41,022 nt of DNA from a virus (lineage: Duplodnaviria; Caudoviricetes), in IMG/VR virus record IMGVR_UViG_3300014613_000013, positions 1 to 41,022 of that record. One strand, written 5' to 3'. The position numbers and the translations under genes were made by a program. Shown here one piece after another: positions 4,324 to 21,662 of the stretch. The notes under the pieces are model-generated. The model made no database searches. It was not told the DNA's origin and saw only the letters and a program-made list of their open reading frames with translations. Each line of letters starts with the position of its first letter. Position 1 is the first letter of the stretch.

Positions 4324-4743
4324 TTACTCCGCCCTAACCAAATCAGTCTTCCACTCTTCAAGCTTTAAATTTAATATATCTATTCCATTCTTGCTTATGT
4401 TATTAAGCTGTCCTATCTGTCCACTCTGTGCTATCTTAGGTACGAGATACATTGTTGTTAGTGTCTTAGACGATGGAATAAATGTACTTAATAAAAACAT
4501 AAAAATACAAATTATTATTAAACTTATATGTAACTTAAATATATTTTCCCTTTGCATACTTCCCGATGCTTTTTTGTAAAAAGTATCCCAAGCATCGTCT
4601 TTAGGACTATATTTATTATCTGCTAATAAACACGGGATTAACAAAAACCCTAATATTAAAAATCCAACTCCACCTAATATAACTAATATTCCACGTATAT
4701 CATCTATAACCCCTATTAAATAAATTAACAATGTTAAATTCAT
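4324..4743 (-). CDS. Membrane protein
   Basis: 139 aa with 2-3 hydrophobic segments; AGGAGG RBS. Confidence 0.75.
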   Translation of the reverse strand: MNLTLLIYLIGVIDDIRGILVILGGVGFLILGFLLIPCLLADNKYSPKDDAWDTFYKKASGSMQRENIFKLHISLIIICIFMFLLSTFIPSSKTLTTMYLVPKIAQSGQIGQLNNISKNGIDILNLKLEEWKTDLVRAE

Positions 4744-4794
4744 CCCTTTCCTCCTATGTTTTATAATATTGGTTATGTAACCCCCTTATATTGC

Positions 4795-5004
4795 AACCAG
4801 CAGTGCAAGGATTTGACAAGTAGTCTAAAAGACTTCCACCTTTTAAACATTTATTGGATGTACCCAACGTCTCTTGTTAAGTCACCTTGCATAGTGTCAT
4901 TTAATCTGTGGGGTTACCATCAGAAGTTCCTCGACTCCTCACCTTTCGGCTACTAGCGACACCTTACGATTAAGCGTCTACATCTATTCCGCCACCTGCC
5001 GGTT
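4795..5004 (-). ncRNA. tRNA-Leu-like structured RNA with two internal insertions
   Basis: 9-bp closing stem AACCGGCAG/CTGCTGGTT; Leu-type D arm GTGGCGGAATAGATGTAGACGC; TTAATC/GATTAA stem; T-like stem TGCAAGG/CCTTGCA ending CAAATCC; inserts of ~54 and ~67 nt. Confidence 0.7.
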
Positions 5005-5719
5005 AAATACTATATTGAATTTCTTCTTCAAACACATAACATTCTGCTTCTACTGCAAAACTACTAGTGATTAATTTAATCGTATTCTGATACAGTTTTC
5101 TGCATAAATCTAATGGGCTATCATTGACCACTAATGTGTTGATATTATTATCTTTTAATCTCTTCAATACATCATTAATTGTCAAATACTGTTGCATATC
5201 TACTGCATATAATCCGTCATTGTTGTCTACACAATATGCAATAGGAACGTCTAGTCGCTCTCTAATCATGCTTAATTGAGCTATATCGAACGATATAAAA
5301 CTATGGATATTATCTATCTTATCATGAGTTAAAGTCACTAGAGCTTCAATAAGCCTCGAATTATAGCCTTCTACACTTGAGAACCAATTATGTACATGAA
5401 TCATTAATTGTATCTGTTCTATTCCTTGTAATTCAAAGACCTCTTTAAGTGTTATCACTTTTTTGACTTTTCTTATCTCTGCTAGAGTCATTTGATAAGT
5501 CTTGAATTTCCCAATATTAGGATCATGTATCAAGATTAAATGATTATCCGCTGTTAAATGTATATCAATTTCTATTCCATACTCATTATTACGGATAGAT
5601 CTTCTAATTGTTTTTAGCTTATTCGCTCTGTGTTTTATTATCTTCTTCTCAAAGATCGAGCTAGGACTCAAAGCCAAGGATTCGCTTACTAATAATAATA
5701 GAATAATTAGTTTACGTAT
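5003..5719 (-). CDS. Glycerophosphodiester phosphodiesterase (GDPD) family protein, probably exported
   Basis: IIKHR, GIEIDIHLTADNHLILIHD, TLAEI, ITLKEVF motifs. Frame extends past TTG 5677 to ATA 5719, adding a signal-like RKLIILLLLVSESLA. Confidence 0.8.
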   Translation of the reverse strand: MRKLIILLLLVSESLALSPSSIFEKKIIKHRANKLKTIRRSIRNNEYGIEIDIHLTADNHLILIHDPNIGKFKTYQMTLAEIRKVKKVITLKEVFELQGIEQIQLMIHVHNWFSSVEGYNSRLIEALVTLTHDKIDNIHSFISFDIAQLSMIRERLDVPIAYCVDNNDGLYAVDMQQYLTINDVLKRLKDNNINTLVVNDSPLDLCRKLYQNTIKLITSSFAVEAECYVFEEEIQYSI

Positions 5720-5737
5720 TTTGCCTTCTGTTATAGA

Positions 5738-5845
5738 GAGTACCGAGCTGGTGTATATTGGCTTGACGCCTAGATACGCTTAATTTAATAAGCCTCGGTA
5801 CTCAATTGTTTTTATTGTTTTAGAATTTGTTATTTTATACACCAG
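5738..5845 (-). promoter_or_regulatory. Pseudoknotted leader RNA, copy A
   Basis: 10-bp stem GAGTACCGAG/CTCGGTACTC, two internal hairpins joined by CGTATCT, and crossing 10-bp pair CTGGTGTATA/TATACACCAG. Confidence 0.65.
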
Positions 5846-5847
5846 TT

Positions 5848-5898
5848 AAAAAAAAGAGAGACATTGCCGAAAGACTTTCCCTTTCGGATTGGTCTCTC
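5848..5898 (-). terminator. Terminator-like hairpin
   Basis: GAGAGAC..CCGAAAG..CTTTCGG..GTCTCTC followed by T8 on the minus strand. Confidence 0.6.
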
Positions 5899-6008
5899 AT
5901 CGTGATTAATCTACAATAGTAGAAATTATAAGGCAAGCTCGTCTCAAACCCCACGTTATCGTCTCACGCTTGCCTATTCTGTATTATACTTATTTGTCTT
6001 GTTTTTGT

Positions 6009-6140
6009 CTACTTCTTTCTACCTTTTCCATTACCTTTGCCGCCACCTTTGCCATAACCTGATCCGCCTGTTTTACAACCACCTTTATTTTGATTAGCTC
6101 TCACTCCTTTTCCTGATCCGTTTCTCTTTGGTTTTGCCAT
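6009..6140 (-). CDS. 43-aa Gly/Lys-rich basic peptide (not in ORF track)
   Basis: MAKPKRNGSGKGVRANQNKGGCKTGGSGYGKGGGKGNGKGRKK*; AAGGAGG RBS. Confidence 0.75.
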   Translation of the reverse strand: MAKPKRNGSGKGVRANQNKGGCKTGGSGYGKGGGKGNGKGRKK

Positions 6141-6141
6141 T

Positions 6142-6576
6142 TTATTCCTCCTTTAATCTCTCTACTTCTCTTGTATAATGTTCTATTAATGCCTCGTAAT
6201 CAAATCTTGTATATTTATGATGTTGATTTTTGCTTGATTCAAGAATTTCTATTATATTTGCTCCATATTTTCTTATTAATCCTAAACTATAGCCAGACAT
6301 ATTCCCTTCTTCAAATCTGTTACATTTTCTACATTGAGCATGACAATTTTTTTCGTTGTATCTTAAATTCATCTTAGCTCTATTGATATAATGTCCACAA
6401 TCAGACTCTTGCCAATGAACTAATTTGCCACAAGAAATACATTTAATACAATCTGTTTTTCCAATTCTATCTCTTAGTCTAATATACTTTGAGAATATTC
6501 TATCTAGTTTATTTTTCAAAGTACTAGTTTTTATTATCTTTTCTTTTATTCGCCGTATATTCTTTTTTTCATGCAT
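6142..6576 (-). CDS. ninG: NinG/Rap-family recombination endonuclease
   Basis: LDRIFSKYIRLRD, CISCG, DCGHYI, NCHAQCRKCNRF, GLIRKYG. Confidence 0.9.
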   Translation of the reverse strand: MHEKKNIRRIKEKIIKTSTLKNKLDRIFSKYIRLRDRIGKTDCIKCISCGKLVHWQESDCGHYINRAKMNLRYNEKNCHAQCRKCNRFEEGNMSGYSLGLIRKYGANIIEILESSKNQHHKYTRFDYEALIEHYTREVERLKEE

Positions 6577-6737
6577 TCTAAAACATCCCTATGAGTCTTG
6601 GGTCTATAAGTACAAATATGCCTATCTTTTTTAAACTTTAAAACTTTATAATATTTGCAATTCTGCCAATCGTAATCAGGCGGACAAAAACAATCACAGA
6701 AATATTTATCGCCTTTTATATTATGTCTAACCTTCAT
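6546..6737 (-). CDS. Small Cys-rich hypothetical protein
   Basis: 63-aa ORF with five Cys, co-oriented with neighbours. Confidence 0.45.
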   Translation of the reverse strand: MKVRHNIKGDKYFCDCFCPPDYDWQNCKYYKVLKFKKDRHICTYRPKTHRDVLECMKKRIYGE

Positions 6738-6749
6738 TTTCTAAATTCT

Positions 6750-6821
6750 TAGCCGTGCCGAGACTTGAACTCGGATTAACTGATCGAAAATCAGATGTGC
6801 TAACCTTTACACTACACGGCC
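6750..6821 (-). tRNA. tRNA-Glu (anticodon TTC), no encoded CCA
   Basis: GGCCGTG/CACGGCT acceptor, D arm GTGTAAAGGTTAGCAC, anticodon loop TTTTCGA, T arm CCGAG-TTCAAGT-CTCGG; T-T mismatch at 27:43. Confidence 0.9.
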
Positions 6822-6880
6822 TTAGCCCGCTGACTGTATAAAATAGGGCTTTCTAGGGATGCATTTCTAGCTAGAAAGGA

Positions 6881-7054
6881 TCAGCGGGCTTTAATCTCCT
6901 TTATTCTTTGATTGCATTCATTAATAAATAATACCCATTCTTTTATTTCTGATTCTGCAAATTCAATTAAATCTTTTAAATCTTTTTTGTCTAATTTATC
7001 TATTTCGAATTTCTTTAATATTTTCTTTATATTTACATTGTCTTTTTTTTCCAT
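6881..7054 (-). CDS. 57-aa charged hypothetical protein (not in ORF track)
   Basis: MEKKDNVNIKK...QRIKEIKAR*; fills the gap on the coding strand. Confidence 0.55.
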   Translation of the reverse strand: MEKKDNVNIKKILKKFEIDKLDKKDLKDLIEFAESEIKEWVLFINECNQRIKEIKAR

Positions 7055-7115
7055 TTTGATTTATCCCCATTTTGCAATAGTTTTTTTTAGGTCTAAAATA
7101 TATGTTCATATTACC

Positions 7116-7838
7116 TCAAAACATCTTTAATTGTCTAGCTTCTTGCTCGATTCTTTGCTTAGAAATTTTACAATATTCTTCCTCTTTTTCAATACAAATC
7201 CATTTACGGTTTAAACTCTCACATGCTATTGCGGTTGTTGAACTTCCTGCAAAACAATCTAAAATCATATTTTGTTCATTACTTCCAATTAATATATATT
7301 TTTTTATTAATTCTATAGGTTTCACTGTAGGATGTTCATTATTTCTATTTGTAGGACTACTAAATAATTTCTTTTTTATTTTACAACCTCCTATAAAAAT
7401 AGCTTTTTCCTCTCTAATATGAATTATAAATTCTAAATCTTGTCTCCAAACATTATTACAAAATGGCGTTGCATTTGTTTTTTCCCATGCCAATAATGTT
7501 GTATAATATTTATTCTTTTCTCCCCATCTCATTAATTTTGATATTTGTTTATTTGAACAAAAACAAAATAGATTAAATTTTTTTAATATCCTTTTAAATT
7601 CTTCAAAAATATTATAATGATTAAACCCACAAGATAAATTCTTTAATTTGTTTCGTATTTTCAAAGCTCGATCTTTTAAAACTGTACTTGTTCCGCCTTG
7701 ATTATCTAATTCATAAGGTGGATCAATAATAATTAAATCAATAATATTATTCTCTATTAAGAGCAATATATCAATAACATCTCCACAATATAAAACCCCA
7801 TTATCTGTTCTATAATACTCATAATCTTCTAGTCTCAT
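7116..7838 (-). CDS. N6-adenine/N4-cytosine DNA methyltransferase (beta class)
   Basis: DPPY catalytic motif before HPTVKP and LDCFAGSSTT (FxG) SAM-binding motif. Confidence 0.93.
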   Translation of the reverse strand: MRLEDYEYYRTDNGVLYCGDVIDILLLIENNIIDLIIIDPPYELDNQGGTSTVLKDRALKIRNKLKNLSCGFNHYNIFEEFKRILKKFNLFCFCSNKQISKLMRWGEKNKYYTTLLAWEKTNATPFCNNVWRQDLEFIIHIREEKAIFIGGCKIKKKLFSSPTNRNNEHPTVKPIELIKKYILIGSNEQNMILDCFAGSSTTAIACESLNRKWICIEKEEEYCKISKQRIEQEARQLKMF

Positions 7839-7910
7839 AATCTACAATCTCCAAACTAAACTTGTCTTAGCCCACCGACTTCGCAATAATGTTTTTGTTT
7901 TGGTTTACCT

Positions 7911-8951
7911 TTAAACATTCTTACTGTTGCGTCCCATATATTCATATTTCTTTTTAAAACCTCTTATAATATATTCTATAACATTTACAGTTACAGCGTT
8001 TCCTAAACATTTATATCTTTGCGTATCTGAAATGCCAGATGTCCAGTTATCTTGGAATCCTTGTAATCTTTCACATTCCAAAGGAGTTAAACTCCGTATA
8101 GTATTATTATATAAATATAAATTATCTTTTTGTACACTTGTTAAACTATTTGTATTTTTATCTTTTCTTTTTTCTAATTGTTGAGTCTTTTTTCTACCTC
8201 TCATGGCATATAAACCTGTTTTAGCTCCGAGGCCACCTGCTTGGCTTGCAATAGTTGTTGATATTCCTTCTGTATCATATACTCTCATCCCTTGTGAATT
8301 TCCTTTAGTAATTTCTTGCAAAACATAGGTCTCATTGCTTTTTGCATTCGAATAATTTGTCCGGAGACAGTTACTAATTTGTTCTCGTAATTTTTTGGTT
8401 GGAATAGTTTTTGTACTAATTCTTTTTTTAAATAATATTTTTCGTCTACATTCTTTTCTAATACCGAAGATAAAGATACGCTCTCGGTTTTGGGCGACTC
8501 CATAATTTTTGCTGTTAAAAATCTTCCATTCAATGTTATACCCCAAGTCGGAGAGAACCCTAAGTATTGTCTTGATAGTTTTTCCATCTTCGTGAGATAA
8601 TAAACCTTTAACATTTTCGAGTAAAAAATATTTTGGTCGTTTGTCTCGTAGAATCCTTGCGACTTCAAAAAAAAGAGTTCCTCTACTGTCATCAAATCCT
8701 CTTCTTTTACCTGCAATAGAGAATGCTTGGCAAGGAAATCCTCCAACAAGCATATCAAATTCGGGCAATTCCTTTGTATTAATTCTAGTTGCATTTCCAT
8801 AATTTTTATGCTCCTTAAAATGTTTCTCATATATTTGAATAGCATATTTATTTATTTCGCTATATCCTATACATTTCCACATATTATTAGTAGCTTGTGC
8901 TATCCCTTTTTCAAAACCACCTATCCCCGAAAACATGCTAAAATATTTCAT
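7911..8951 (-). CDS. dcm: C5-cytosine DNA methyltransferase
   Basis: FSGIGG, GFPCQAFS, ENVKGL, QNRERIF, LTPLECERLQGF, QRYKCLGNAV. Confidence 0.95.
   Translation of the reverse strand: MKYFSMFSGIGGFEKGIAQATNNMWKCIGYSEINKYAIQIYEKHFKEHKNYGNATRINTKELPEFDMLVGGFPCQAFSIAGKRRGFDDSRGTLFFEVARILRDKRPKYFLLENVKGLLSHEDGKTIKTILRVLSDLGYNIEWKIFNSKNYGVAQNRERIFIFGIRKECRRKILFKKRISTKTIPTKKLREQISNCLRTNYSNAKSNETYVLQEITKGNSQGMRVYDTEGISTTIASQAGGLGAKTGLYAMRGRKKTQQLEKRKDKNTNSLTSVQKDNLYLYNNTIRSLTPLECERLQGFQDNWTSGISDTQRYKCLGNAVTVNVIEYIIRGFKKKYEYMGRNSKNV
8285..8845 (-). CDS. Alternative-frame ORF nested in dcm (possible second MTase polypeptide)
   Basis: 186 open codons in AT-rich DNA; contains SLSSVLEKNVDEKYYL, an MTase-like segment; true start uncertain. 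Confidence 0.5.
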   Translation of the reverse strand: MLFKYMRNILRSIKIMEMQLELIQRNCPNLICLLEDFLAKHSLLQVKEEDLMTVEELFFLKSQGFYETNDQNIFYSKMLKVYYLTKMEKLSRQYLGFSPTWGITLNGRFLTAKIMESPKTESVSLSSVLEKNVDEKYYLKKELVQKLFQPKNYENKLVTVSGQIIRMQKAMRPMFCKKLLKEIHKG

Positions 8952-8954
8952 AAT

Positions 8955-9560
8955 TTATATCCTATATACTAAACTAGACTTAACCCACCAATCTTCTTTA
9001 TCTTCAATCTTTAAATATTTACAATAAGGTCGCAAATAAAGCTTGGATTTTAAAGGGATTTCTGTACTTACTAACAATGTGTTAATAACTTTATTGTTAT
9101 TAATTCTTAATTCAAACTCTAACCATTTGACTTTAATGTAGTTATAATACATAATCTCGCCCTTGTCGAAATGATCGAATGCGACCGTATAACCTATTTT
9201 AAACCACTCAATGTCTTTTGCTATTCGATAGCCTGTATCGATCGTCTGAGCGTTCATATCTTTGACCTGACGGTCATATGAGGTAAACTGTCTTCTATAA
9301 TAAAACCTATTATTAAATATCTTGGCTAACCACTTATCCTCTTTCTCATAAGTCAAGTTAAAATCATGTCCCCAACCATGTATACCTATTTCTCGTTCAT
9401 ATAATCCACACATTGAGCCTTTAACATTGTACTTAGAGTCTTGAGCCTTCCAGTCTATACCTGCCCTTATTTCGTAATCTAAAGGCAAGTTATCCACAAC
9501 AGGAGTCCTTACTGAATAACTACATAACATTGATAGTATTACTAGTGATTTAAATATCAT
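8955..9560 (-). CDS. Exported protein, possible small outer-membrane beta-barrel
   Basis: Signal-like N-terminus, aromatic-rich alternating strands, C-terminus SSLVYRI. Confidence 0.5.
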   Translation of the reverse strand: MIFKSLVILSMLCSYSVRTPVVDNLPLDYEIRAGIDWKAQDSKYNVKGSMCGLYEREIGIHGWGHDFNLTYEKEDKWLAKIFNNRFYYRRQFTSYDRQVKDMNAQTIDTGYRIAKDIEWFKIGYTVAFDHFDKGEIMYYNYIKVKWLEFELRINNNKVINTLLVSTEIPLKSKLYLRPYCKYLKIEDKEDWWVKSSLVYRI

Positions 9561-9706
9561 TTAAACTCCAAATATTTATTTTGCCATACAATCTCAAAAT
9601 CTTCTTTATTTAATTCTTTAACCTTAATTAATAAAACTAGTTTTCCATCTTGTGTTATTGCAACATCTGTTTTTTCTTCACCGTTTTCATCTAAAACTTT
9701 AAACAT
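9557..9706 (-). CDS. 49-aa hypothetical protein (not in ORF track)
   Basis: AGGAG RBS, MFKVLDENGEEK..., ATGA overlap with the next gene. Confidence 0.65.
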   Translation of the reverse strand: MFKVLDENGEEKTDVAITQDGKLVLLIKVKELNKEDFEIVWQNKYLEFK

Positions 9707-9720
9707 TATATGCTCCTACA

Positions 9721-10695
9721 TCACGCCGCATATTGTAATTCTTCATTATTCCAATATTTCATTAATATTATATCAGGTATTTCGGGTTTTGATAAGTATT
9801 TAATCATGTTTTCTGTTTTATCTTTTGACCAAATATATAACCTAATTCGAGTTTTTCCATCACCGAACTTGATTTGATTTACACCATTTATTATTAATCT
9901 GCAAGTGACACCAGCTCTGGAGACTAACGCCAATGTACCTATATATTTATCAAACATATCCTTGTCACTTAACCCAATTGCTTCTAATCCATAACCCTTT
10001 TTGTCATAAGGTTTGTAAATAAAATCCACGGGCAAATGTATCTCTAAATATTGTACATCTTCTTTTTTGCGTGCCATCATGAACCGCATAAGTAATGCTC
10101 GATATTCGCAATAATGACACTGCTCGTAATACATTCCTGTTAGAACTATTCGTGTGATTCCATCTGCAAACTTTGTTCGATAATTATAAGCTAACACATC
10201 GAATACATCTAATAAGAATATAATACCTTTTTTTGTATTAAAATCAAAATAATCTTCTGCGTCTATCTTCTGATATATATAATCCCATAGACTTAATACA
10301 ACTATTCTTTGAATATTTTTAGATAAGCCAGTTTGATCAAAATACTTTTGAGCGTGTACAATAACGAAATTAGTAATTCTTTCTTTCTTTATTATCTCAG
10401 GATACTCAACAGTTGAAAAATCATCTATAGCACAAAAGTCTTGTGAATCAGGGAGTAAATTGCTGGGACGAGGTGCTTGAAATTTATTAAAAGGATTCCG
10501 TCTAAGACTCCAATATAAAATCTCTTTGAATCGTGATTGTAGCTCTTTACGGAAATACTCTTCTTCTAAGAATATCCTAACCTGGTATTCAAGTCTATCT
10601 TTATTATGCCAATCAAACAAGCTAGTATTACTCAGAGATACAGATATACTACACGTTGTAAATATTGTCATTATTATTAATATTATTTTTCTCAT
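9721..10695 (-). CDS. Exported hypothetical protein
   Basis: 324 aa; MRKIILIIMTIFTTCSISVS signal-like start. Confidence 0.75.
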   Translation of the reverse strand: MRKIILIIMTIFTTCSISVSLSNTSLFDWHNKDRLEYQVRIFLEEEYFRKELQSRFKEILYWSLRRNPFNKFQAPRPSNLLPDSQDFCAIDDFSTVEYPEIIKKERITNFVIVHAQKYFDQTGLSKNIQRIVVLSLWDYIYQKIDAEDYFDFNTKKGIIFLLDVFDVLAYNYRTKFADGITRIVLTGMYYEQCHYCEYRALLMRFMMARKKEDVQYLEIHLPVDFIYKPYDKKGYGLEAIGLSDKDMFDKYIGTLALVSRAGVTCRLIINGVNQIKFGDGKTRIRLYIWSKDKTENMIKYLSKPEIPDIILMKYWNNEELQYAA

Positions 10696-10710
10696 TAATT
10701 ATTCCTTGAA

Positions 10711-10863
10711 TTAGCCGTAGCCATCGCCGTCGCCGTCGCCATCGCCGTCGCCGTAGCCGTCGCCGAAGCCGTTGCCGTAGCTGTCGCCGTCGCCGTAGCC
10801 GTTGCCGTCGCCATCTCCATAAGAATTGTGGTTAAAATCAAAATTTATAATTCGTTTTTCCAT
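10711..10863 (-). CDS. 50-aa (Gly-Xaa)n repeat peptide (not in ORF track)
   Basis: MEKRIINFDFNHNSYGDGDGNGYGDGDSYGNGFGDGYGDGDGDGDGDGYG*; GAGG RBS; GC-rich 6-bp repeat. Confidence 0.8.
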   Translation of the reverse strand: MEKRIINFDFNHNSYGDGDGNGYGDGDSYGNGFGDGYGDGDGDGDGDGYG

Positions 10864-11201
10864 TTTTCCTCATTACATTCTATCGAAAAAACTTGAGTTA
10901 AAATATCAAATTCAACAAGCCCATTTGTTTTTCTTAATCTTGTGTTTTCTTGTGTACCATGCTGAGCTAATTGTCCTAATCCTTCGGTTGTCCCCCATCT
11001 TTCAATTATAGATGCTTTGTGTAATTTGCAATCTGATCCTTGTCTCTCATAATACCCAATTACAACCCAACCTCTTTGTAATACTACAATCTTAACTGGT
11101 AATTCTCCCGTCTTTTGCGTTGAGGCGTCTTCAACCCCATCAATAATAATCTTTTTCATTTTTCCTCCTTCTGCCAATACTGGTTCTTTTAATTTTTTCA
11201 T
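10845..11201 (-). CDS. DUF6948-like phage protein (alternative start 11159)
   Basis: IVVLQRGWVVIG..ASIIERWGTTEGLGQLAQHG; two in-frame ATGs each with AGGAGGAAAA. Confidence 0.7.
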   Translation of the reverse strand: MKKLKEPVLAEGGKMKKIIIDGVEDASTQKTGELPVKIVVLQRGWVVIGYYERQGSDCKLHKASIIERWGTTEGLGQLAQHGTQENTRLRKTNGLVEFDILTQVFSIECNEEKWKNEL

Positions 11202-11255
11202 TTTTCCTCCTCTACCGGGAATCCCGGGACACCCCTCACAACCATCAATTCCCGG

Positions 11256-11648
11256 TTAAAATAATATTTCTTCATCTTGACATGTTGATGTTGGTTCAGG
11301 TATACCTTCTTCGAAAGGTTGCGAATTTGGCACTGTTATTTTAATCAATATCTCTAATTTTTCAACGCGTGCCTTTAAATCTTGAAAATCTTTATATGAT
11401 ACATTCCTAGGCATATTCCTAAAATTTAAATATTGCCCGTTTTCCTCTACAATTATTTCTACTTTATCGCCTACATTCCAATTGCTATTCTCACTATTAC
11501 CAAACCCGCTTAACCATTTTTCCCCATGTTCTTGAGTCTTAATACCTATTCTTGTATAATTACGACCATCTTTTGTTGTGAATAAATTCCCAGTTTTATC
11601 TTTATCTGATCTGTGTATTCGTTCTATTGTTACTTTTTCACTTTTCAT
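11256..11648 (-). CDS. Putative single-stranded DNA-binding protein
   Basis: OB-fold-like (WNVGDKVEIIVEENGQYLNF), acidic tail DEEILF, located in the replication module. Confidence 0.6.
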   Translation of the reverse strand: MKSEKVTIERIHRSDKDKTGNLFTTKDGRNYTRIGIKTQEHGEKWLSGFGNSENSNWNVGDKVEIIVEENGQYLNFRNMPRNVSYKDFQDLKARVEKLEILIKITVPNSQPFEEGIPEPTSTCQDEEILF

Positions 11649-12145
11649 TTTTCCTCCTTCTTTGTATTTAATATATGTATTATTTCAAATAAATTATCAT
11701 AATCATTTATAGATAATAAATCAATTACATGATATGGTTTATTATTACTTCGATAAATACTACAATTTCTATATGGAATATATAGATATTTTTTTAATCG
11801 ATTAATAATTCCGTCTCGGATGAAATCAACTTCAAATTCTATCATAACAAAATTTATATTATCTTCAGAAAATGTATTTTTTACTTTATATGTCCTGTTT
11901 TGAAAATCACAATATATATTAGAAAAATCAAATTTATTATTAGTCTCATTAAATTTATTTTCTTCTATGAATTTATTTAATTCGTTAATAATTGTTGAAG
12001 AAAATAATTTTTTATCAGTTTTTAAAAGCATTGTTATAAATAAATTCATATCGTCTTCACTGCAATTTTTACATAAATCTGAAAAAGCCTCTGTATCAAC
12101 CTTTAAGCCTAAATCTATTAATCTATTAAGACAATATTCATACAT
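11645..12145 (-). CDS. Hypothetical protein downstream of the initiator
   Basis: 166-aa ORF overlapping both neighbours. Confidence 0.7.
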   Translation of the reverse strand: MYEYCLNRLIDLGLKVDTEAFSDLCKNCSEDDMNLFITMLLKTDKKLFSSTIINELNKFIEENKFNETNNKFDFSNIYCDFQNRTYKVKNTFSEDNINFVMIEFEVDFIRDGIINRLKKYLYIPYRNCSIYRSNNKPYHVIDLLSINDYDNLFEIIHILNTKKEEK

Positions 12146-13043
12146 TTTGTATAACTCCTTTTTCTTTTAATTCTTTTTGATAAATTCGCCATCTTTGTAA
12201 AATTTCAAACTCTGTCATTTCGAGATACCTCTTGTGTGATAATTCCGTGTTTTTAGCTAATTCATTTATTTTGTTTATTAATTCGGGATTATCCTTAAAT
12301 TTTTCATTTGTTTCTACAGCTTTATAATACCCTTTCGGGTTGATTTCCCGTAAATCCTTCAAAACGGCGATTATAGCCCATTTAATCATCTTCCTATAGT
12401 CATCCCCTTGGCACGCCTTTTTATCGCCCTGAGCGAGCTTTTCGAGCTTCCAGGCGTTAAGTTTTATCATGGCTTCATGTATAACCGTTTTTCCATGCTT
12501 TGTAACAAGTTTGTTATATTCCATTTCTGTCATGTATACAAATTCTTCGTATTTTATCTTTTTATCAAAGTTTTTATAAAACTTTGCAAATTCATTTTGG
12601 TTGTATATATTTATTTCTTTATCATTCTTATCATTCTTATCATTATTATCATTATTGTTTGTGTCCGTTTGTTGTCCGTTTGTTGTCCGTTTGTTGTCCG
12701 TTTGTTGTACGATCTGTTGTCCATCTATTTGATACTTATCCCAATTAAGTATTGTAATTAAACGAAATTTTGTTGTTTTTTGTTGTTTGATTTGATGTTC
12801 ACTTTCGAGGTATGTCAATCCTCTTTCCACTGAACTAGGCGAAATTCCGCTGTTCAAAGATAGTTCTTTTCTTCCTGTTATAATCTGACCCATTTTACAC
12901 ACCTGCTTTTTATTATTCCAAATAAATGTCTTGTCTTTGTGATTAGCTTTTAATAGTAAAATAATCCATAACCAAGCGTATTTAGGCTTCTTACAAATAG
13001 GATTATCTAATATATGCCTATGTAATTTGACCCAACCTTCCAT
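12138..13043 (-). CDS. Phage replication initiator / replisome organiser
   Basis: EGWVKLHR..LWIILLLKANHK..GQIITGRKELS..ITILNWDKYQ winged-helix N-terminus, followed by an iteron-encoded linker. Confidence 0.85.
   Translation of the reverse strand: MEGWVKLHRHILDNPICKKPKYAWLWIILLLKANHKDKTFIWNNKKQVCKMGQIITGRKELSLNSGISPSSVERGLTYLESEHQIKQQKTTKFRLITILNWDKYQIDGQQIVQQTDNKRTTNGQQTDTNNNDNNDKNDKNDKEINIYNQNEFAKFYKNFDKKIKYEEFVYMTEMEYNKLVTKHGKTVIHEAMIKLNAWKLEKLAQGDKKACQGDDYRKMIKWAIIAVLKDLREINPKGYYKAVETNEKFKDNPELINKINELAKNTELSHKRYLEMTEFEILQRWRIYQKELKEKGVIQNV
12618..12723. repeat. Iteron array / probable replication origin
   Basis: Four perfect 11-bp TGTCCGTTTGT (12662-12705) plus degenerate copies, next to AT-rich 9-bp TTATCATTM repeats inside the initiator gene. 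Confidence 0.75.
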
Positions 13044-13061
13044 TGTCTCTCCAAATAGAAA

Positions 13062-13178
13062 GAGCGTATTGGTACGGACATAGTGCTATAGATAGCAAGA
13101 TACGACCAGATAACTGGCAACCAATACGCTCAATATGTTTAATTTTTTAATGTTTGATTTCTTCATTTCTACATCCGT
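13062..13178 (-). promoter_or_regulatory. Pseudoknotted leader RNA, copy B (5' of the replication initiator)
   Basis: 12-bp stem GAGCGTATTGGT/ACCAATACGCTC, two hairpins joined by CGTATCT, crossing pair ACGGATGTAG/CTATGTCCGT. Confidence 0.7.
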
Positions 13179-13193
13179 TTTTTAACTTTGTCT

Positions 13194-13222
13194 ATTTTAT
13201 ATCAAAGACCAAAAAAAGTAAA
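13194..13222 (-). promoter_or_regulatory. Sigma70-like promoter for the replication operon
   Basis: TTTACT-N17-TAAAAT. Confidence 0.6.
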
Positions 13223-13223
13223 G

Positions 13224-13325
13224 CTATTTTTTTATTTTAAAATAAATTATAAACGCAATAAATATTATAAAGCCTGCAACAAGCCCCATAGCTAAAACGC
13301 TTAATACTAATATATCAATATTCAT
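13224..13325 (-). CDS. 33-aa single-TM peptide
   Basis: AAGGAGG RBS; MNIDILVLSVLAMGLVAGFIIFIAFIIYFKIKK*. Confidence 0.65.
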   Translation of the reverse strand: MNIDILVLSVLAMGLVAGFIIFIAFIIYFKIKK

Positions 13326-13462
13326 TTTTCCTCCTTTATCTTCACATTAAAGTCTTTCTTTATCACTTTTGAAATTGCCCATATTCCATAAAAAATACCA
13401 AAAATTAAACCTATAATCAAACTTATAAAATTACTTACTATAAAAATTGTTATATTTTCCAT
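13322..13462 (-). CDS. 46-aa single-TM peptide
   Basis: MENITIFIVSNFISLIIGLIFGIFYGIWAISK...; ATGA overlap with the next ORF. Confidence 0.6.
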   Translation of the reverse strand: MENITIFIVSNFISLIIGLIFGIFYGIWAISKVIKKDFNVKIKEEK

Positions 13463-13463
13463 T

Positions 13464-13922
13464 TTATACCTTATCCTTATACCCAAATCTATCTGCTTCG
13501 GGTATTACTATTCCAAGATTCTCTGCCGCCCATCTAATACAAGCGTCAAGATATTTACTAGTTTCTTCTCGATCGCCTTCTTTTCCAACAGACTTATATT
13601 TTTTTGCTGATATAATATGTTCTTTAACTTTAATCTCTTGAATATCGTAATGACCTAATTCATCTTTCATAAATATATGAATATCATTTAAATCTTTATA
13701 ATGATCGTTGCCTAATTCATACAATCCTTTCTTAATTGCTGGCAATACTACTGCCCAGTAATAGCCTCTCTGTTGATCCGACGGCTCTTTCCCAATCTTC
13801 TTTAGCTCTATATACATGTCTTGTTGCTGTAGATATTCCCATAATTGTAACCGCATATTTTCAAAAATTGTTTTCCAATGATTTTTTGATACTCTATAGA
13901 AATAATATTTTTGTCTACCCAT
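13464..13922 (-). CDS. NinB/Orf-like recombination accessory protein
   Basis: SDQQRGYYW..IHIFMK..SKYLDACIRWAAENLGIVIP; follows the exonuclease. Confidence 0.65.
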   Translation of the reverse strand: MGRQKYYFYRVSKNHWKTIFENMRLQLWEYLQQQDMYIELKKIGKEPSDQQRGYYWAVVLPAIKKGLYELGNDHYKDLNDIHIFMKDELGHYDIQEIKVKEHIISAKKYKSVGKEGDREETSKYLDACIRWAAENLGIVIPEADRFGYKDKV

Positions 13923-14525
13923 TTAATTCTCCATAAACTTTTTACATTTATCGTATTTTTCCAATAATATCTTTGTGCCTTTTGTAATACCTTCTTGGAT
14001 ACGTTCAAATTTCTTACTGTCAGGTTCGACTCTTTGTATCCATAAACTTTTATAGTAGTTAGGATTATAAGCCACAAAATCCCACCACTTGCGACCAGTA
14101 ATAAATAAATTCATTTGTATTTGCCAAATATATTTTGAACTTATTTTACCCGTCAATACCAACTCTGTATAAACTTTATTGTTTAAGCTTTTAATTTCTA
14201 TTCCGCCATCTTCGCTTATGAGTCCATCAGGAGAACACCCGACATATTCTGAAAATTCTATAAATCCAACTTGCTTGACTTTATTGCCTGTCTCCATTTC
14301 ATAAATTACTCGTGCTTCTTCTTCAAGGTCATTGCCTCTAGCCATATCAGTATTAGTATATCCTTCATCTTTTGTAATAGCAAAACTCTCGCAAACTATA
14401 TTATTTGTATATGTATCAAGTCCTTTGCCTATGTTGGCGATCTCTTGAGCGTGTGAAGCCGTAAGTTTAAGCTCTCTAATTTTTAACCACTCCTCTGATC
14501 CTTGTGTCATATTATGAATTTTCAT
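13923..14525 (-). CDS. YqaJ/lambda-type exonuclease
   Basis: QGSEEWLKIR..LTAS, MARGNDLE, CSPDGL, IEIK, QIQMNL, WDFVAY. Confidence 0.92.
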   Translation of the reverse strand: MKIHNMTQGSEEWLKIRELKLTASHAQEIANIGKGLDTYTNNIVCESFAITKDEGYTNTDMARGNDLEEEARVIYEMETGNKVKQVGFIEFSEYVGCSPDGLISEDGGIEIKSLNNKVYTELVLTGKISSKYIWQIQMNLFITGRKWWDFVAYNPNYYKSLWIQRVEPDSKKFERIQEGITKGTKILLEKYDKCKKFMEN

Positions 14526-16504: not shown

Positions 16505-16867
16505 TCATAACCACCATACCTCCGATTTACGGATTATAAGTATGTCGTAACCCGATCTAAGACCACATCTCTTTACGATCTTCTTATAATGTCTATCATT
16601 GTAACTATCTTCTTCTCTACACAATTCAAATAATCTTTCAATCATTGCGGTGTCAATTTCGTCCCAAAATTTAGATTTTCTGATAGACTTTTTTATTTCA
16701 TTATATATATCAGTCGCTAATCCAACATTGAACCATTGATACTTATAATGTTTATTTTGTCCCTTAGATTTTGCGAATAATTTTTTTAATTCATCATCAG
16801 TAAACTTGCTAATAATGAACCCTTGACTTGAATAATAAAGTTTGTTATTATTTTCGTGTGTGTTCAT
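16505..16867 (-). CDS. First early-arm hypothetical protein
   Basis: 120 aa; AGGAGGT RBS. Confidence 0.75.
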   Translation of the reverse strand: MNTHENNNKLYYSSQGFIISKFTDDELKKLFAKSKGQNKHYKYQWFNVGLATDIYNEIKKSIRKSKFWDEIDTAMIERLFELCREEDSYNDRHYKKIVKRCGLRSGYDILIIRKSEVWWL

Positions 16868-16901
16868 CTTATACCTCCTCGGGGGTAATTTCTTTTTCTT
16901 T

Positions 16902-16933
16902 AAGCCTCGCTTCTACTAGAGCGAGGCTTTTTT
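16902..16933 (+). terminator. Strong hairpin with T run on + strand (also lies in the leftward leader)
   Basis: AAGCCTCGCT-tctactag-AGCGAGGCTT-TTTT. Confidence 0.65.
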
Positions 16934-17056: not shown

Positions 17057-17629
17057 ATGTCCGAAAAAATAATAGTTCCAGCTCAAAATAGAATATTAGC
17101 CAAAATGATTTATACACATAAAATAAATAATTGGCTTTTTTTACCTGATACAGATAAAAAGAAAAACTATTCAGTTAAAGCAACAGTAGAAGCGATAGGG
17201 GCAGGAATATGCCTAGACGGGGTCAAATTGGGCGATACAGTGATTTTTAAGCCTGGTGTGGGTGAATTTACCTTTAATACAATTAAAATCAATCACGATT
17301 CAAATGAGACTTATGTAGTGCTACAAGAATCAGACATACTAGCTAAAGAAGAAGATAATCAGATTATACCACTTAATGGGTATGCTTTTTGTCAAAGATA
17401 TATAAAAGAAGAAAAGAGTAATTCGGGAATAATAATTTCGCAAGATAAAAATAAAGAAGATATTAAAGAAGGCAAATTAATTAAAACAAAGCTTATACGT
17501 TCAGACATACAAGAATTAAAAGAAATTCCAATAGATACAACACTTTATGTATCTTTTTTCTATACATTTCACAAGGATAATCAAGAATATCAGTTTATGC
17601 AAGAAGAGGATATATGGTTAATAAGCTAA
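17057..17629 (+). CDS. groES: Tandem two-domain GroES/Cpn10-like co-chaperonin
   Basis: Domain 1: VPAQNRILAK..LFLPD..TVEAIGAG..VKLGDTVIF..LQESDILA. Domain 2: IIPLNG..EEKSNSGIII..EG..EYQFMQEEDI. Confidence 0.75.
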   Translation: MSEKIIVPAQNRILAKMIYTHKINNWLFLPDTDKKKNYSVKATVEAIGAGICLDGVKLGDTVIFKPGVGEFTFNTIKINHDSNETYVVLQESDILAKEEDNQIIPLNGYAFCQRYIKEEKSNSGIIISQDKNKEDIKEGKLIKTKLIRSDIQELKEIPIDTTLYVSFFYTFHKDNQEYQFMQEEDIWLIS

Positions 17630-20918: not shown

Positions 20919-21388
20919 AGAAAAAAAAGAAAAGAGGTAGACCCCCGAAGAAGGTTAAGGTGGTTGAAGAAGAAATAATTAGAGTTGAGGAAACAAACAA
21001 AGAACAAAAGGAATCTAAGATAGTTGATGAAGTAGAAGTAATGCCATCTTTAGAGACACCAAAAGAGCCTAAGGTAGTAGAAGAAAATGTTAAAGATATG
21101 CCTGAAAAACAAATTAATCAAGATATAAAGATTGATAAACAAGGGTTTGTTACATTAGCAGTATCAGAAGAAACACCTAGAATGATAGTAAGAGAAAGAG
21201 AAATAGCTATAAAAGATATAACCGATATACAAGAAATAGTATTTCCTATGCTTGAGAAAATAGGTGTAGTTGATAGGACTTTTGTAGAGATACAAAAAAA
21301 CGATGGATTTAGATATTTTTGGAGAGGGACTAAAGCTGAGTTTAAAGAAAAATTAAACCAGGAGAAAAAGAATGCGAGTGATAAATAA
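20906..21388 (+). CDS. Hypothetical protein with N-terminal AT-hook-like motif
   Basis: KKKRGRPPKK; GGGAGG RBS. Confidence 0.7.
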   Translation: MSEIKKKKKRGRPPKKVKVVEEEIIRVEETNKEQKESKIVDEVEVMPSLETPKEPKVVEENVKDMPEKQINQDIKIDKQGFVTLAVSEETPRMIVREREIAIKDITDIQEIVFPMLEKIGVVDRTFVEIQKNDGFRYFWRGTKAEFKEKLNQEKKNASDK

Positions 21389-21662
21389 TCAAGTTTTAAT
21401 TGAAATCCTAGATAAAGATATAAGTAAAGGTGGATTAATAATCCCAGAAACTGCCAAAAATGTACATTCTCGACAAATGGGGAAAATAGTAGCAATAGAT
21501 GAAGGTATAACATCTTTTAAGAAAGATGATAAGGTATTCTATGATAGATATGCAGGCAATCCATTATCTATATTAGATAACGAACGATTAGGACTAGAAA
21601 GGGGAAAATATTATATGATAATAGATATAGATAGTCTATTTGCTAAGATAGAGGAGGAATAA
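21372..21662 (+). CDS. groES: GroES/Cpn10-like co-chaperonin
   Basis: NQVLIE..SKGGLIIPETAK..GKIVAI..KKDDKVFYDRYAG..SLFAKIE. Confidence 0.88.
   Translation: MRVINNQVLIEILDKDISKGGLIIPETAKNVHSRQMGKIVAIDEGITSFKKDDKVFYDRYAGNPLSILDNERLGLERGKYYMIIDIDSLFAKIEEE

What the first reader, a model, noticed from the sequence alone, without database searches (positions are those of the whole stretch)
13062..13178. Two paralogous pseudoknotted leader RNAs (here and 5738-5845), one in front of the replication initiator
Seen: both minus-strand elements share this order: 10-nt segment X; A-rich spacer of 32-37 nt; ATT-GAG opening a 10-12 bp stem; hairpin; conserved CGTATCT; hairpin; the complement of X abutting the stem's 3' strand (ending CTC); TCTAT; RBS; start codon. 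Stem and X sequences differ between copies while pairing is kept, and copy B's G-U pairs work only on the minus strand. Copy B lies just after a promoter and holds a 26-codon ORF (MKKSNIKKLNILSVLVASYLVVSCYL). Established analogues: P1 C4 / P4 CI cloverleaf antisense RNAs, and leader-peptide/pseudoknot control of rep in IncI/IncB plasmids. Inference: a new RNA switch family, possibly substituting for a protein repressor.
Basis: partly seen in the sequence, partly recalled or inferred. Interest (0 to 1): 0.78.

Follow-up and report, generated by a model that had tools for sequence, protein, structure and literature searches.

The report
Fold-back pseudoknot leader gating phage replication
This groundwater phage carries two related copies of a predicted knotted RNA fold that matches no Rfam family, one directly in front of its predicted DNA-replication gene; a related phage keeps the pairing through matched mutations, and the fold likely lets the gene be read only when a ribosome has loaded on a tiny upstream reading frame, though that job is untested.

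Summary
Both minus-strand copies (13178-13062, 5845-5738) have a 10-bp X/X' pairing crossing a 10-12-bp stem that encloses two hairpins and CGTATCT. A whole-genome scan finds exactly these two, against 0 hits in 152 shuffled strands. A related phage (L130) has an orthologue before a rep gene with a swapped N-terminus. All 9 changes in paired columns keep pairing, including 2 double changes in X/X'. A model built without copy A finds copy A (E 2.5e-5). There is no Rfam match, and only these 3 members were found. The best reading is an inferred cis attenuator. X overlaps the weak ribosome site of a short ORF. Without an early ribosome, X' would lock X and the long stem plus U-rich tail would stop transcription just before rep. 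It resembles P4 CI/P1 C4 in shape but fails membership: no profile match, no second target, weak trans pairing. Corrections: copy A has no ATG (ATA instead), no promoter of its own and a poor U tail, and the peptide is not conserved. This scan noted similar designs in other phages (unchecked AI notes). Function is untested.

The parts
13194..13222 (-). Predicted sigma-70-type promoter of copy B (9 of 12)
   Evidence: the orthologue L130:4134-4162 has 11 of 12
13169..13178 (-). Copy B segment X; overlaps the weak SD-like site of the leader ORF
   Evidence: 4 of 10 letters differ in L130 with pairing kept
13086..13166 (-). 26-codon leader ORF; starts 2 nt after X and stops in hairpin 2, just before X'
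   Evidence: same start, frame and stop in L130, but 5 of 6 changed codons are non-synonymous
13132..13168 (-). A-rich 37-nt spacer (first loop of the pseudoknot), with short A/C-rich repeats
13062..13131 (-). Copy B P domain (70 nt): 12-bp stem enclosing hairpin 1, CGTATCT, hairpin 2 and X' (13083-13074)
   Evidence: pair counts
13053..13061 (-). U-rich tail right after the stem (7 of 9 U); candidate terminator tail or AU-rich translation enhancer
   Evidence: also U-rich in L130
12138..13052 (-). SD (13052-13047) and rep gene (13043-12138, 301 aa; DnaD-like loader / replisome-organiser type initiator)
   Evidence: PHROGs phrog_2514 E 1e-32; GenBank relatives named replication initiation protein or DnaD-like
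5836..5845 (-). Copy A segment X; begins 2 nt after the T run of an upstream terminator-like hairpin
5779..5833 (-). Copy A open frame at the same position as B's ORF, beginning ATA (GTG in frame within X) and stopping in hairpin 1
5738..5803 (-). Copy A P domain (66 nt): 10-bp stem, hairpin 1, CGTATCT, hairpin 2, X' (5757-5748)
5003..5729 (-). Weak SD (5729-5724) and GDPD-family gene, probably starting at ATA 5719 with a signal-peptide-like N-terminus
   Evidence: Pfam PF03009 E 3e-8; N-terminus resembles that of the 324-aa gene
5848..6011 (-). Upstream context of copy A: promoter (11 of 12), hairpin, single Cas12a-type repeat end (5928-5909), terminator-like hairpin with T8 (5898-5848)
   Evidence: repeat end matches a confirmed CRISPR repeat listed in PMC5395568

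Best explanation
The element is a conserved 5' leader predicted to fold as a pseudoknot, and it likely works in cis as a ribosome-gated attenuator of the phage replication gene. Shown by sequence and comparison: the order promoter, X, short ORF, long stem with X' in its loop, U-rich tail, SD, rep; X/X' and the long stem are kept by selection; X covers the SD-like site 2 nt before the ORF's start. Inferred: X and the ORF start are transcribed about 95 nt before X'. If a ribosome loads in that time, it would run through the 5' strand of the long stem and stop beside X', the stem could not close, and RNA polymerase would read on into rep and the genes behind it. If no ribosome loads, X' would fold back on X and shut the ORF, and the stem would close in front of the U-rich tail and end the transcript about 10 nt before the rep start. 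Rep expression would then follow the host's capacity to start translation. The invariant unpaired CGTATCT is not explained by this; it is probably a tertiary contact or a protein site. Copy A is a paralogue with a different X and is probably re-used or decaying, because it has ATA starts, a poor U tail and no promoter of its own.
For: Real structure: 2 hits against 0 in 152 shuffled strands. The orthologue has 84% identity over 138 nt, against 69-74% for the gene blocks that flank it. All 9 substitutions in 62 paired positions keep pairing; simulated chance is 30 in 600,000 for all pairs and 2,859 in 1,500,000 for the 7 in X/X'. Model R1, from B and L130 only and without X/X' pairs, ranks copy A as the best hit outside its two training sequences (39.7 bits, E 2.5e-5), with six changed pairs in P. 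Cis role: the leader stayed in front of rep although the rep N-terminus was swapped (DUF6291 in L130; only residues 143-301 align, 72%). X is the only strong partner of X' on the sense strand in each genome. Ribosome gate: in 3 of 3 members the frame starting 2 nt after X is the only one of three that is open through the spacer, and it stops inside the loop before X'. An SD-like site lies inside X in all three (-4.1 to -5.4 kcal/mol). Terminator: the tail has 7 of 9 U in B and is U-rich in L130, and only 4 of 46 phage genes have such a window before the start. L130 holds a second, unrelated leader with promoter, 5' address, long stem with the complement in its loop and a U run.
Against: Only 3 members from 2 phages. 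The shuffle control of the pair-count tool has no power at n=2 (115 of 500 shuffles reach the observed values). There is no expression, probing or reporter data. The tool's terminator scan does not call the stem (it allows loops of 3-8 nt; here 46), the U tails are interrupted, and copy A's tail has 3 of 9 U. The ORF's SD is weak: 28% of random 15-mers reach -3 or better. An open frame over a shuffled spacer has a chance of 0.29-0.41 per copy. The peptide is not conserved (1 synonymous against 5 non-synonymous changes). Copy A starts with ATA and lies behind a terminator. B's own promoter is at chance level. CGTATCT is unexplained.
Confidence: 0.4

Rival explanations
1. CI/C4-like immunity RNA: the 66-70-nt three-stem domain is cut out of a short transcript and its X' pairs in trans with X on new transcripts, giving sequence-specific superinfection or copy-number control.
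For: Gross shape (basal stem plus two hairpins) and size are close to C4 (three stems, about 77 nt; PMC5320573 passages). There is an upstream complementary site like seqA (PMC4825925 section 21). X differs between copies like a private address. No repressor family was hit.
Against: No Rfam C4 or isrK match at any threshold tried. No second target downstream or elsewhere. Predicted trans gain is 0 to -4 kcal/mol, with no preference for the cognate partner. The stem starts GAG, not the GGW reported for C4 processing.
Confidence: 0.15
2. Protein-binding translational operator: a phage or host protein (Rep itself, a single-strand-binding protein or S1) recognises the pseudoknot, the invariant CGTATCT and the A-rich spacer, and sets rep translation.
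For: CGTATCT and the character of the spacer are kept between copies whose stems have turned over. Hairpin 1 and the junction are invariant between B and L130 (0 changes in 23 nt). The T4 gene 32 leader pseudoknot is a recalled analogue.
Against: The A-rich tract lies 80 nt upstream of the rep SD rather than over it. The leader was kept while the rep N-terminus was replaced. The paralogue precedes an unrelated gene. No binding was tested.
Confidence: 0.17
3. Translational switch by SD occlusion: the pseudoknot holds P' away from the downstream SD (on state); a ribosome on the leader ORF frees P', which then covers the SD (off state).
For: Predicted SD openness falls when the 5' part is blocked in B (0.74 to 0.58) and in A (0.66 to 0.36).
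Against: L130 shifts the other way (0.49 to 0.59), the changes are small, and the anti-SD letters are not conserved.
Confidence: 0.1
4. Processing or stability element (self-cleaving RNA or nuclease block) that defines or protects an mRNA 5' end, with the ORF incidental.
For: X lies near a predicted RNA 5' end in B and L130 and right after a terminator in A. The pseudoknot is compact and coaxial, with an invariant unpaired core.
Against: No Rfam ribozyme match. The strand order differs from HDV-like, pistol and twister ribozymes (recalled). The first base of X is not conserved (A, G, C).
Confidence: 0.12
5. Not an RNA function: chance, or a structure used as single-stranded DNA.
For: Few members; no RNA data.
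Against: Shuffle control, pair-keeping substitutions, G-U/G-C interchange on one strand only, and a position behind predicted promoters.
Confidence: 0.06

Closest known systems
P4 CI RNA (seqA / CI / seqC) and P1/P7 C4 antisense RNA, Rfam RF01695 (PMC4825925, PMC10111431, PMC5320573: passages seen; PMC2864571: table passage seen)
   Same: A phage leader with a three-stem domain of about 70-77 nt and an upstream site complementary to an unpaired segment of that domain; it lies before replication functions (P4); the address letters vary between copies.
   Different: No profile match; one antisense segment of 10 nt rather than two; no downstream target over the ribosome site; no GGW at the stem base; weak predicted trans pairing; the gene behind is rep itself, not kil, icd or ant.
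rep leader of I-complex plasmids (repB or repY leader peptide, pseudoknot, RNAI) (PMC10286972: introduction passage seen; pseudoknot details recalled)
   Same: A short leader ORF and a pseudoknot in front of a replication initiator.
   Different: The leader ORF stops 42 nt before the rep start; the pseudoknot does not include the rep SD; no conserved antisense promoter was seen.
Ribosome-coupled attenuators with a terminator inside or behind a leader ORF (for example E. coli pyrBI; recalled, no call)
   Same: Proposed logic: a ribosome on a short ORF prevents a stem followed by U residues from closing.
   Different: Here the stem has a 46-nt two-hairpin loop that carries an antisense to the ORF's own start region; no regulatory codon run is conserved; it is in a phage, before rep.

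Membership tests
P4 CI / P1 C4 antisense RNA | Match to Rfam C4 (RF01695) or isrK profiles | tested here: not met
   No match at the gathering threshold in the window, at E up to 10 in 4500-14500 or at E up to 5 in L130. The c4-a1b1 motif has no Rfam accession in the PMC2864571 table, so it may not have been tested.
P4 CI / P1 C4 antisense RNA | Three-stem RNA of about 77 nt (basal stem plus two hairpins) | tested here: met
   66-70 nt with a basal stem and two hairpins; gross shape only
P4 CI / P1 C4 antisense RNA | Complementary site upstream in the same leader (seqA) | tested here: met
   X, 10 of 10 paired in 3 of 3 members
P4 CI / P1 C4 antisense RNA | Second target downstream, over a ribosome-binding site (seqC), and two antisense loops | tested here: not met
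   Genome-wide duplex scans of each X' give X as the only full partner on the sense strand; the next best are partial and not conserved
P4 CI / P1 C4 antisense RNA | RNase P processing to a stable small RNA | not testable with these tools
   No RNA data; the stem base reads GAG, not GGW (for the motif)
P4 CI / P1 C4 antisense RNA | Specific action in trans | tested here: inconclusive
   Cofold gain 0 to -4 kcal/mol in 9 pairings, no cognate preference; prediction only
I-complex plasmid rep control | Leader peptide ORF upstream of the initiator | tested here: met
   26 codons in B and L130
I-complex plasmid rep control | Pseudoknot that involves the rep ribosome-binding region, with translational coupling (recalled) | tested here: not met
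   X' and P' end 10 nt or more before the SD; the ORF stops 42 nt before the rep ATG
I-complex plasmid rep control | Counter-transcribed antisense RNA | tested here: not met
   Only chance-level (9 of 12) antisense promoter matches, at different places in the window and L130
Ribosome-coupled transcription attenuator | Translated leader ORF overlapping the 5' strand of a terminator stem | tested here: inconclusive
   The geometry is met in 3 of 3; translation is untested; the SD is weak; A starts with ATA
Ribosome-coupled transcription attenuator | Intrinsic terminator (stem directly followed by a U tract) | tested here: inconclusive
   7 of 9 U in B, U-rich in L130, 3 of 9 in A; not called by the consensus scan
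HDV-like and other catalogued self-cleaving ribozymes | Rfam match, and nested double-pseudoknot strand order with P4 and J4/2 between P1' and P2' (recalled) | tested here: not met
   No Rfam match; X' abuts P' with 0 nt between

The most novel reading that the evidence does not exclude
A self-locking RNA switch of uncultured phages: a terminator stem carries in its loop a private 10-nt key to the start of its own leader ORF, so replication genes are transcribed only when host ribosomes load quickly. The spent 70-nt domain also acts in trans on leaders with the same key, giving repressor-free, key-specific control. Paralogues with new keys are re-used for other genes, and copy A may be wired behind a Cas12a-repeat RNA whose spacer region overlaps the upstream terminator.
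Probability: 0.15. Interest if true: 0.8.

Novelty: new variant of a known kind. Interest (0 to 1): 0.5.

Why it matters
If the reading is right, a phage from a slow-growth habitat ties its replication gene to host translation with about 120 nt of RNA and no protein. The interchangeable 10-nt keys would make a compact, orthogonal switch that can be tested with simple reporters. It adds a covariation-supported example to a design that this scan has noted, unchecked, before the replication genes of several unrelated uncultured phages. The value is limited by having three members and no functional data.

Tried and rejected
Homologue searches that gave nothing new: viral pattern scan 1 (119 loci from 48 of 64 parts, none with the architecture); viral pattern scan 2 (47 stretches, 1 real = L130); viral spacer pattern (20 stretches, 1 real = L130); metagenome scan (118 matches from 45 of 64 parts, 1 real = the window's own record, L253); genome scan (6 matches, none real by eye). 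All these patterns assume that motifs shared by 2-3 members are conserved, so distant members would be missed. BLAST against phage records for both copies and plasmid records for B gave only short matches. Protein routes: rep gave 10 loci with other leaders; terminase gave 51 distant loci; the 152-aa gene and a RecT scan of genomes gave none; the 324-aa gene gave only L130. 538 RecT relatives exist in the protein database, but their DNA could not be reached. Model R2 on 50 of 71 related virus records gave 11 weak matches (best 23.4 bits, E 0.016); I looked at 6 of them and saw no such architecture. Sequencing runs: no RNA holder listed; laying contigs showed no variant inside the element. A pairing of CGTA(T) with X' appears in minimum-energy folds, but its register differs between copies, so I rejected it as a conserved helix. 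A conserved peptide function for the leader ORF was rejected. Literature: searches (listings) showed no description of this element. The supplements of PMC10690425 had no hit for four 13-mers, but files 1, 2 and 4 were not searched and three larger files cannot be read, so that catalogue is not excluded. bioRxiv 10.64898/2026.09.22.753630 (passages) describes other RNAs.

Full report
Setting. The window is a whole 41-kb phage genome with a short terminal overlap. Portal, capsid, terminase, RecT, YqaJ, NinG, two methylases and two GroES-like genes are recognised. The DNA occurs in groundwater metagenome runs (two of them may be its source). The host is unknown. No repressor or integrase family was hit, but most ORFs have no annotation.

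Observation. Both elements are as described. X pairs with X' over 10 of 10 positions, and this helix crosses a basal stem P of 12 bp (B) or 10 bp (A). X' and P' are contiguous, so the two helices could stack. P encloses a hairpin, CGTATCT and a second hairpin. A scan for this topology returned only these two sites in the genome and none in 152 shuffled strands. A looser scan added one weak site at 11325 and gave 1 hit in 36 shuffled strands. Rfam has no match at the gathering threshold or at loose E-values.

Homologue. A RecT search found L130, a contig of a related phage. It has the same leader between the same upstream gene and a rep gene whose N-terminus is different (DUF6291; the C-terminal 159 residues are 72% identical). 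The leader is 84% identical over 138 nt, against 69-74% for the gene blocks that flank it. All 31 pairs hold in both sequences. X/X' has 3 one-sided and 2 two-sided changes, and P has 2 one-sided changes. Random placement of the same number of changes keeps all pairs in 30 of 600,000 trials, and in 2,859 of 1,500,000 for X/X' alone. The tool's own shuffle control is uninformative with two rows (115 of 500). G-U pairs (3 in B, 4 in L130) point to the minus strand as RNA. A covariance model from B and L130 alone, with X/X' not modelled as pairs, found copy A as the best hit outside its training sequences, at 39.7 bits (E 2.5e-5); the best unrelated site scored 16.3. By direct reading, 8 of the 10 X/X' pairs differ on both sides between A and B. 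Five pattern scans, three BLAST searches and a model search of 50 related records added no fourth member. The family is rare in these collections, or its distant members do not keep the motifs I used.

Anatomy. B and L130 lie 15-21 nt behind a predicted -10 box (9 of 12 and 11 of 12). In all three members a frame begins 2 nt after X (ATG, ATG, ATA). It is the only open frame through the A-rich spacer, and it stops inside the loop of P before X'. Chance gives an open frame 29-41% of the time per copy, so this is modest evidence. X itself holds the SD-like letters of this frame (-4.1 to -5.4 kcal/mol; the median for phage genes is -7.75). The peptide is not conserved: 5 of 6 changed codons alter the residue, and only 1 of 21 shared residues has a silent change, against 51 of 109 in the neighbouring gene. 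So the RNA, not the peptide, is constrained. P is followed at once by a U-rich run in B and L130, then by the rep SD; 4 of 46 genes have such a run before the start. Copy A differs. It starts 2 nt after a terminator-like hairpin with T8, has no predicted promoter of its own, has a poor U tail, and has ATA where ATG is expected both for the leader frame and for the GDPD-family gene behind it. Its stems are nevertheless perfect.

Mechanism. The best-supported reading is cis control of rep, most likely by a race. A ribosome that loads before X' is made keeps P open and allows read-through; otherwise X' locks X and P with its U tail ends the transcript. The structure, its conservation and the geometry are shown; translation of the ORF, termination and the race are inferred (confidence 0.4; about 0.65 for some cis role in rep expression). 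Modelled SD occlusion is small and inconsistent between members. Trans pairing of a freed P domain is weak and not specific in cofolding. The invariant CGTATCT has no conserved partner and is left unexplained, which keeps a protein-binding or processing role open. L130 carries a second leader of unrelated sequence with a promoter, a 5' address, a long stem with the complement in its loop and a U run (L130:5719-5850), which suggests that this phage group uses the design more than once.

Comparison. C4 is a three-stem RNA of about 77 nt cut by RNase P, with two loops that pair with targets (PMC5320573, passages). CI pairs with seqA upstream and seqC downstream to end transcription (PMC4825925, one passage of section 21), and Rfam C4 and isrK detect relatives (PMC10111431, passages). 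The element shares the shape and the upstream site but not the profile match, the second target or the processing motif. It may work in part like CI but is not a member. I-complex plasmids use a leader peptide and an antisense RNA (PMC10286972, introduction passage); here the ORF is not coupled to rep and no conserved antisense promoter was seen. Five paper searches (listings) showed no description of this element. The large phage RNA catalogue PMC10690425 could be searched only in part. Earlier notes of this scan describe like designs of other sequence before phage replication genes; none matches this sequence. Two of them gave me the wording and part of the idea of a fold-back onto a leader ORF and of a terminator leader. 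I tested the geometry here, but not their own claims.

Verdict. A real structured leader with no Rfam match, three known members and good evidence for the pseudoknot; function is inferred. New variant of a known kind; interest 0.5.

Noticed in passing
window 6011-5848 (-): A promoter (11 of 12), a hairpin, one Cas12a-type repeat end (5928-5909), 10 nt and a terminator-like hairpin with T8: a candidate solitary repeat unit or RNA anti-CRISPR. The last 19 nt equal the 3' end of a confirmed F. branchiophilum repeat (PMC5395568); the assignment to Cas12a is recalled and fits the Cas12a tool papers listed. Type V-A Racrs are known (PMC10651486 passages). The first 10 nt after the repeat occur nowhere else in the window. 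The would-be spacer overlaps the terminator's 5' strand, so Cas12a binding could in principle affect read-through into copy A; untested.
   Followed up: partly
window 16823-16929 (+); L130:767-667 (-): An antisense promoter inside the first early gene and an antisense terminator upstream of it define an RNA of about 80 nt over that gene's ribosome site; the same layout is in L130.
   Followed up: partly
L130:5685-5850 (+): A second pseudoknotted leader of unrelated sequence: promoter (10 of 12 with TG), 10-nt address, 14-bp stem with the complement in its loop, and a U run; then about 570 nt without an ORF of 50 codons or more on this strand. No Rfam match.
   Followed up: partly
window 11325-11212 (-): A weak third crossing-stem site: a GC-rich hairpin directly before the SD of gene 11201, whose loop pairs over 9 nt with the end of the upstream ORF, behind a 10-of-12 promoter match. 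May be chance.
   Followed up: partly
window 5719-5003 (-): A divergent GDPD-family gene with no relative but itself among 405 candidates; probable ATA start, with a signal-peptide-like N-terminus resembling that of the 324-aa gene at 10695.
   Followed up: partly
window 13043-12138 (-); L130:4318-5145: The rep N-terminal domain is swapped between the two phages while the leader and the C-terminal domain are kept.
   Followed up: yes
window 6821-6750 (-); 17057-17629 and 21372-21662 (+): A tRNA gene (anticodon TTC by reading) and two GroES-like genes, one with a doubled domain.
   Followed up: no
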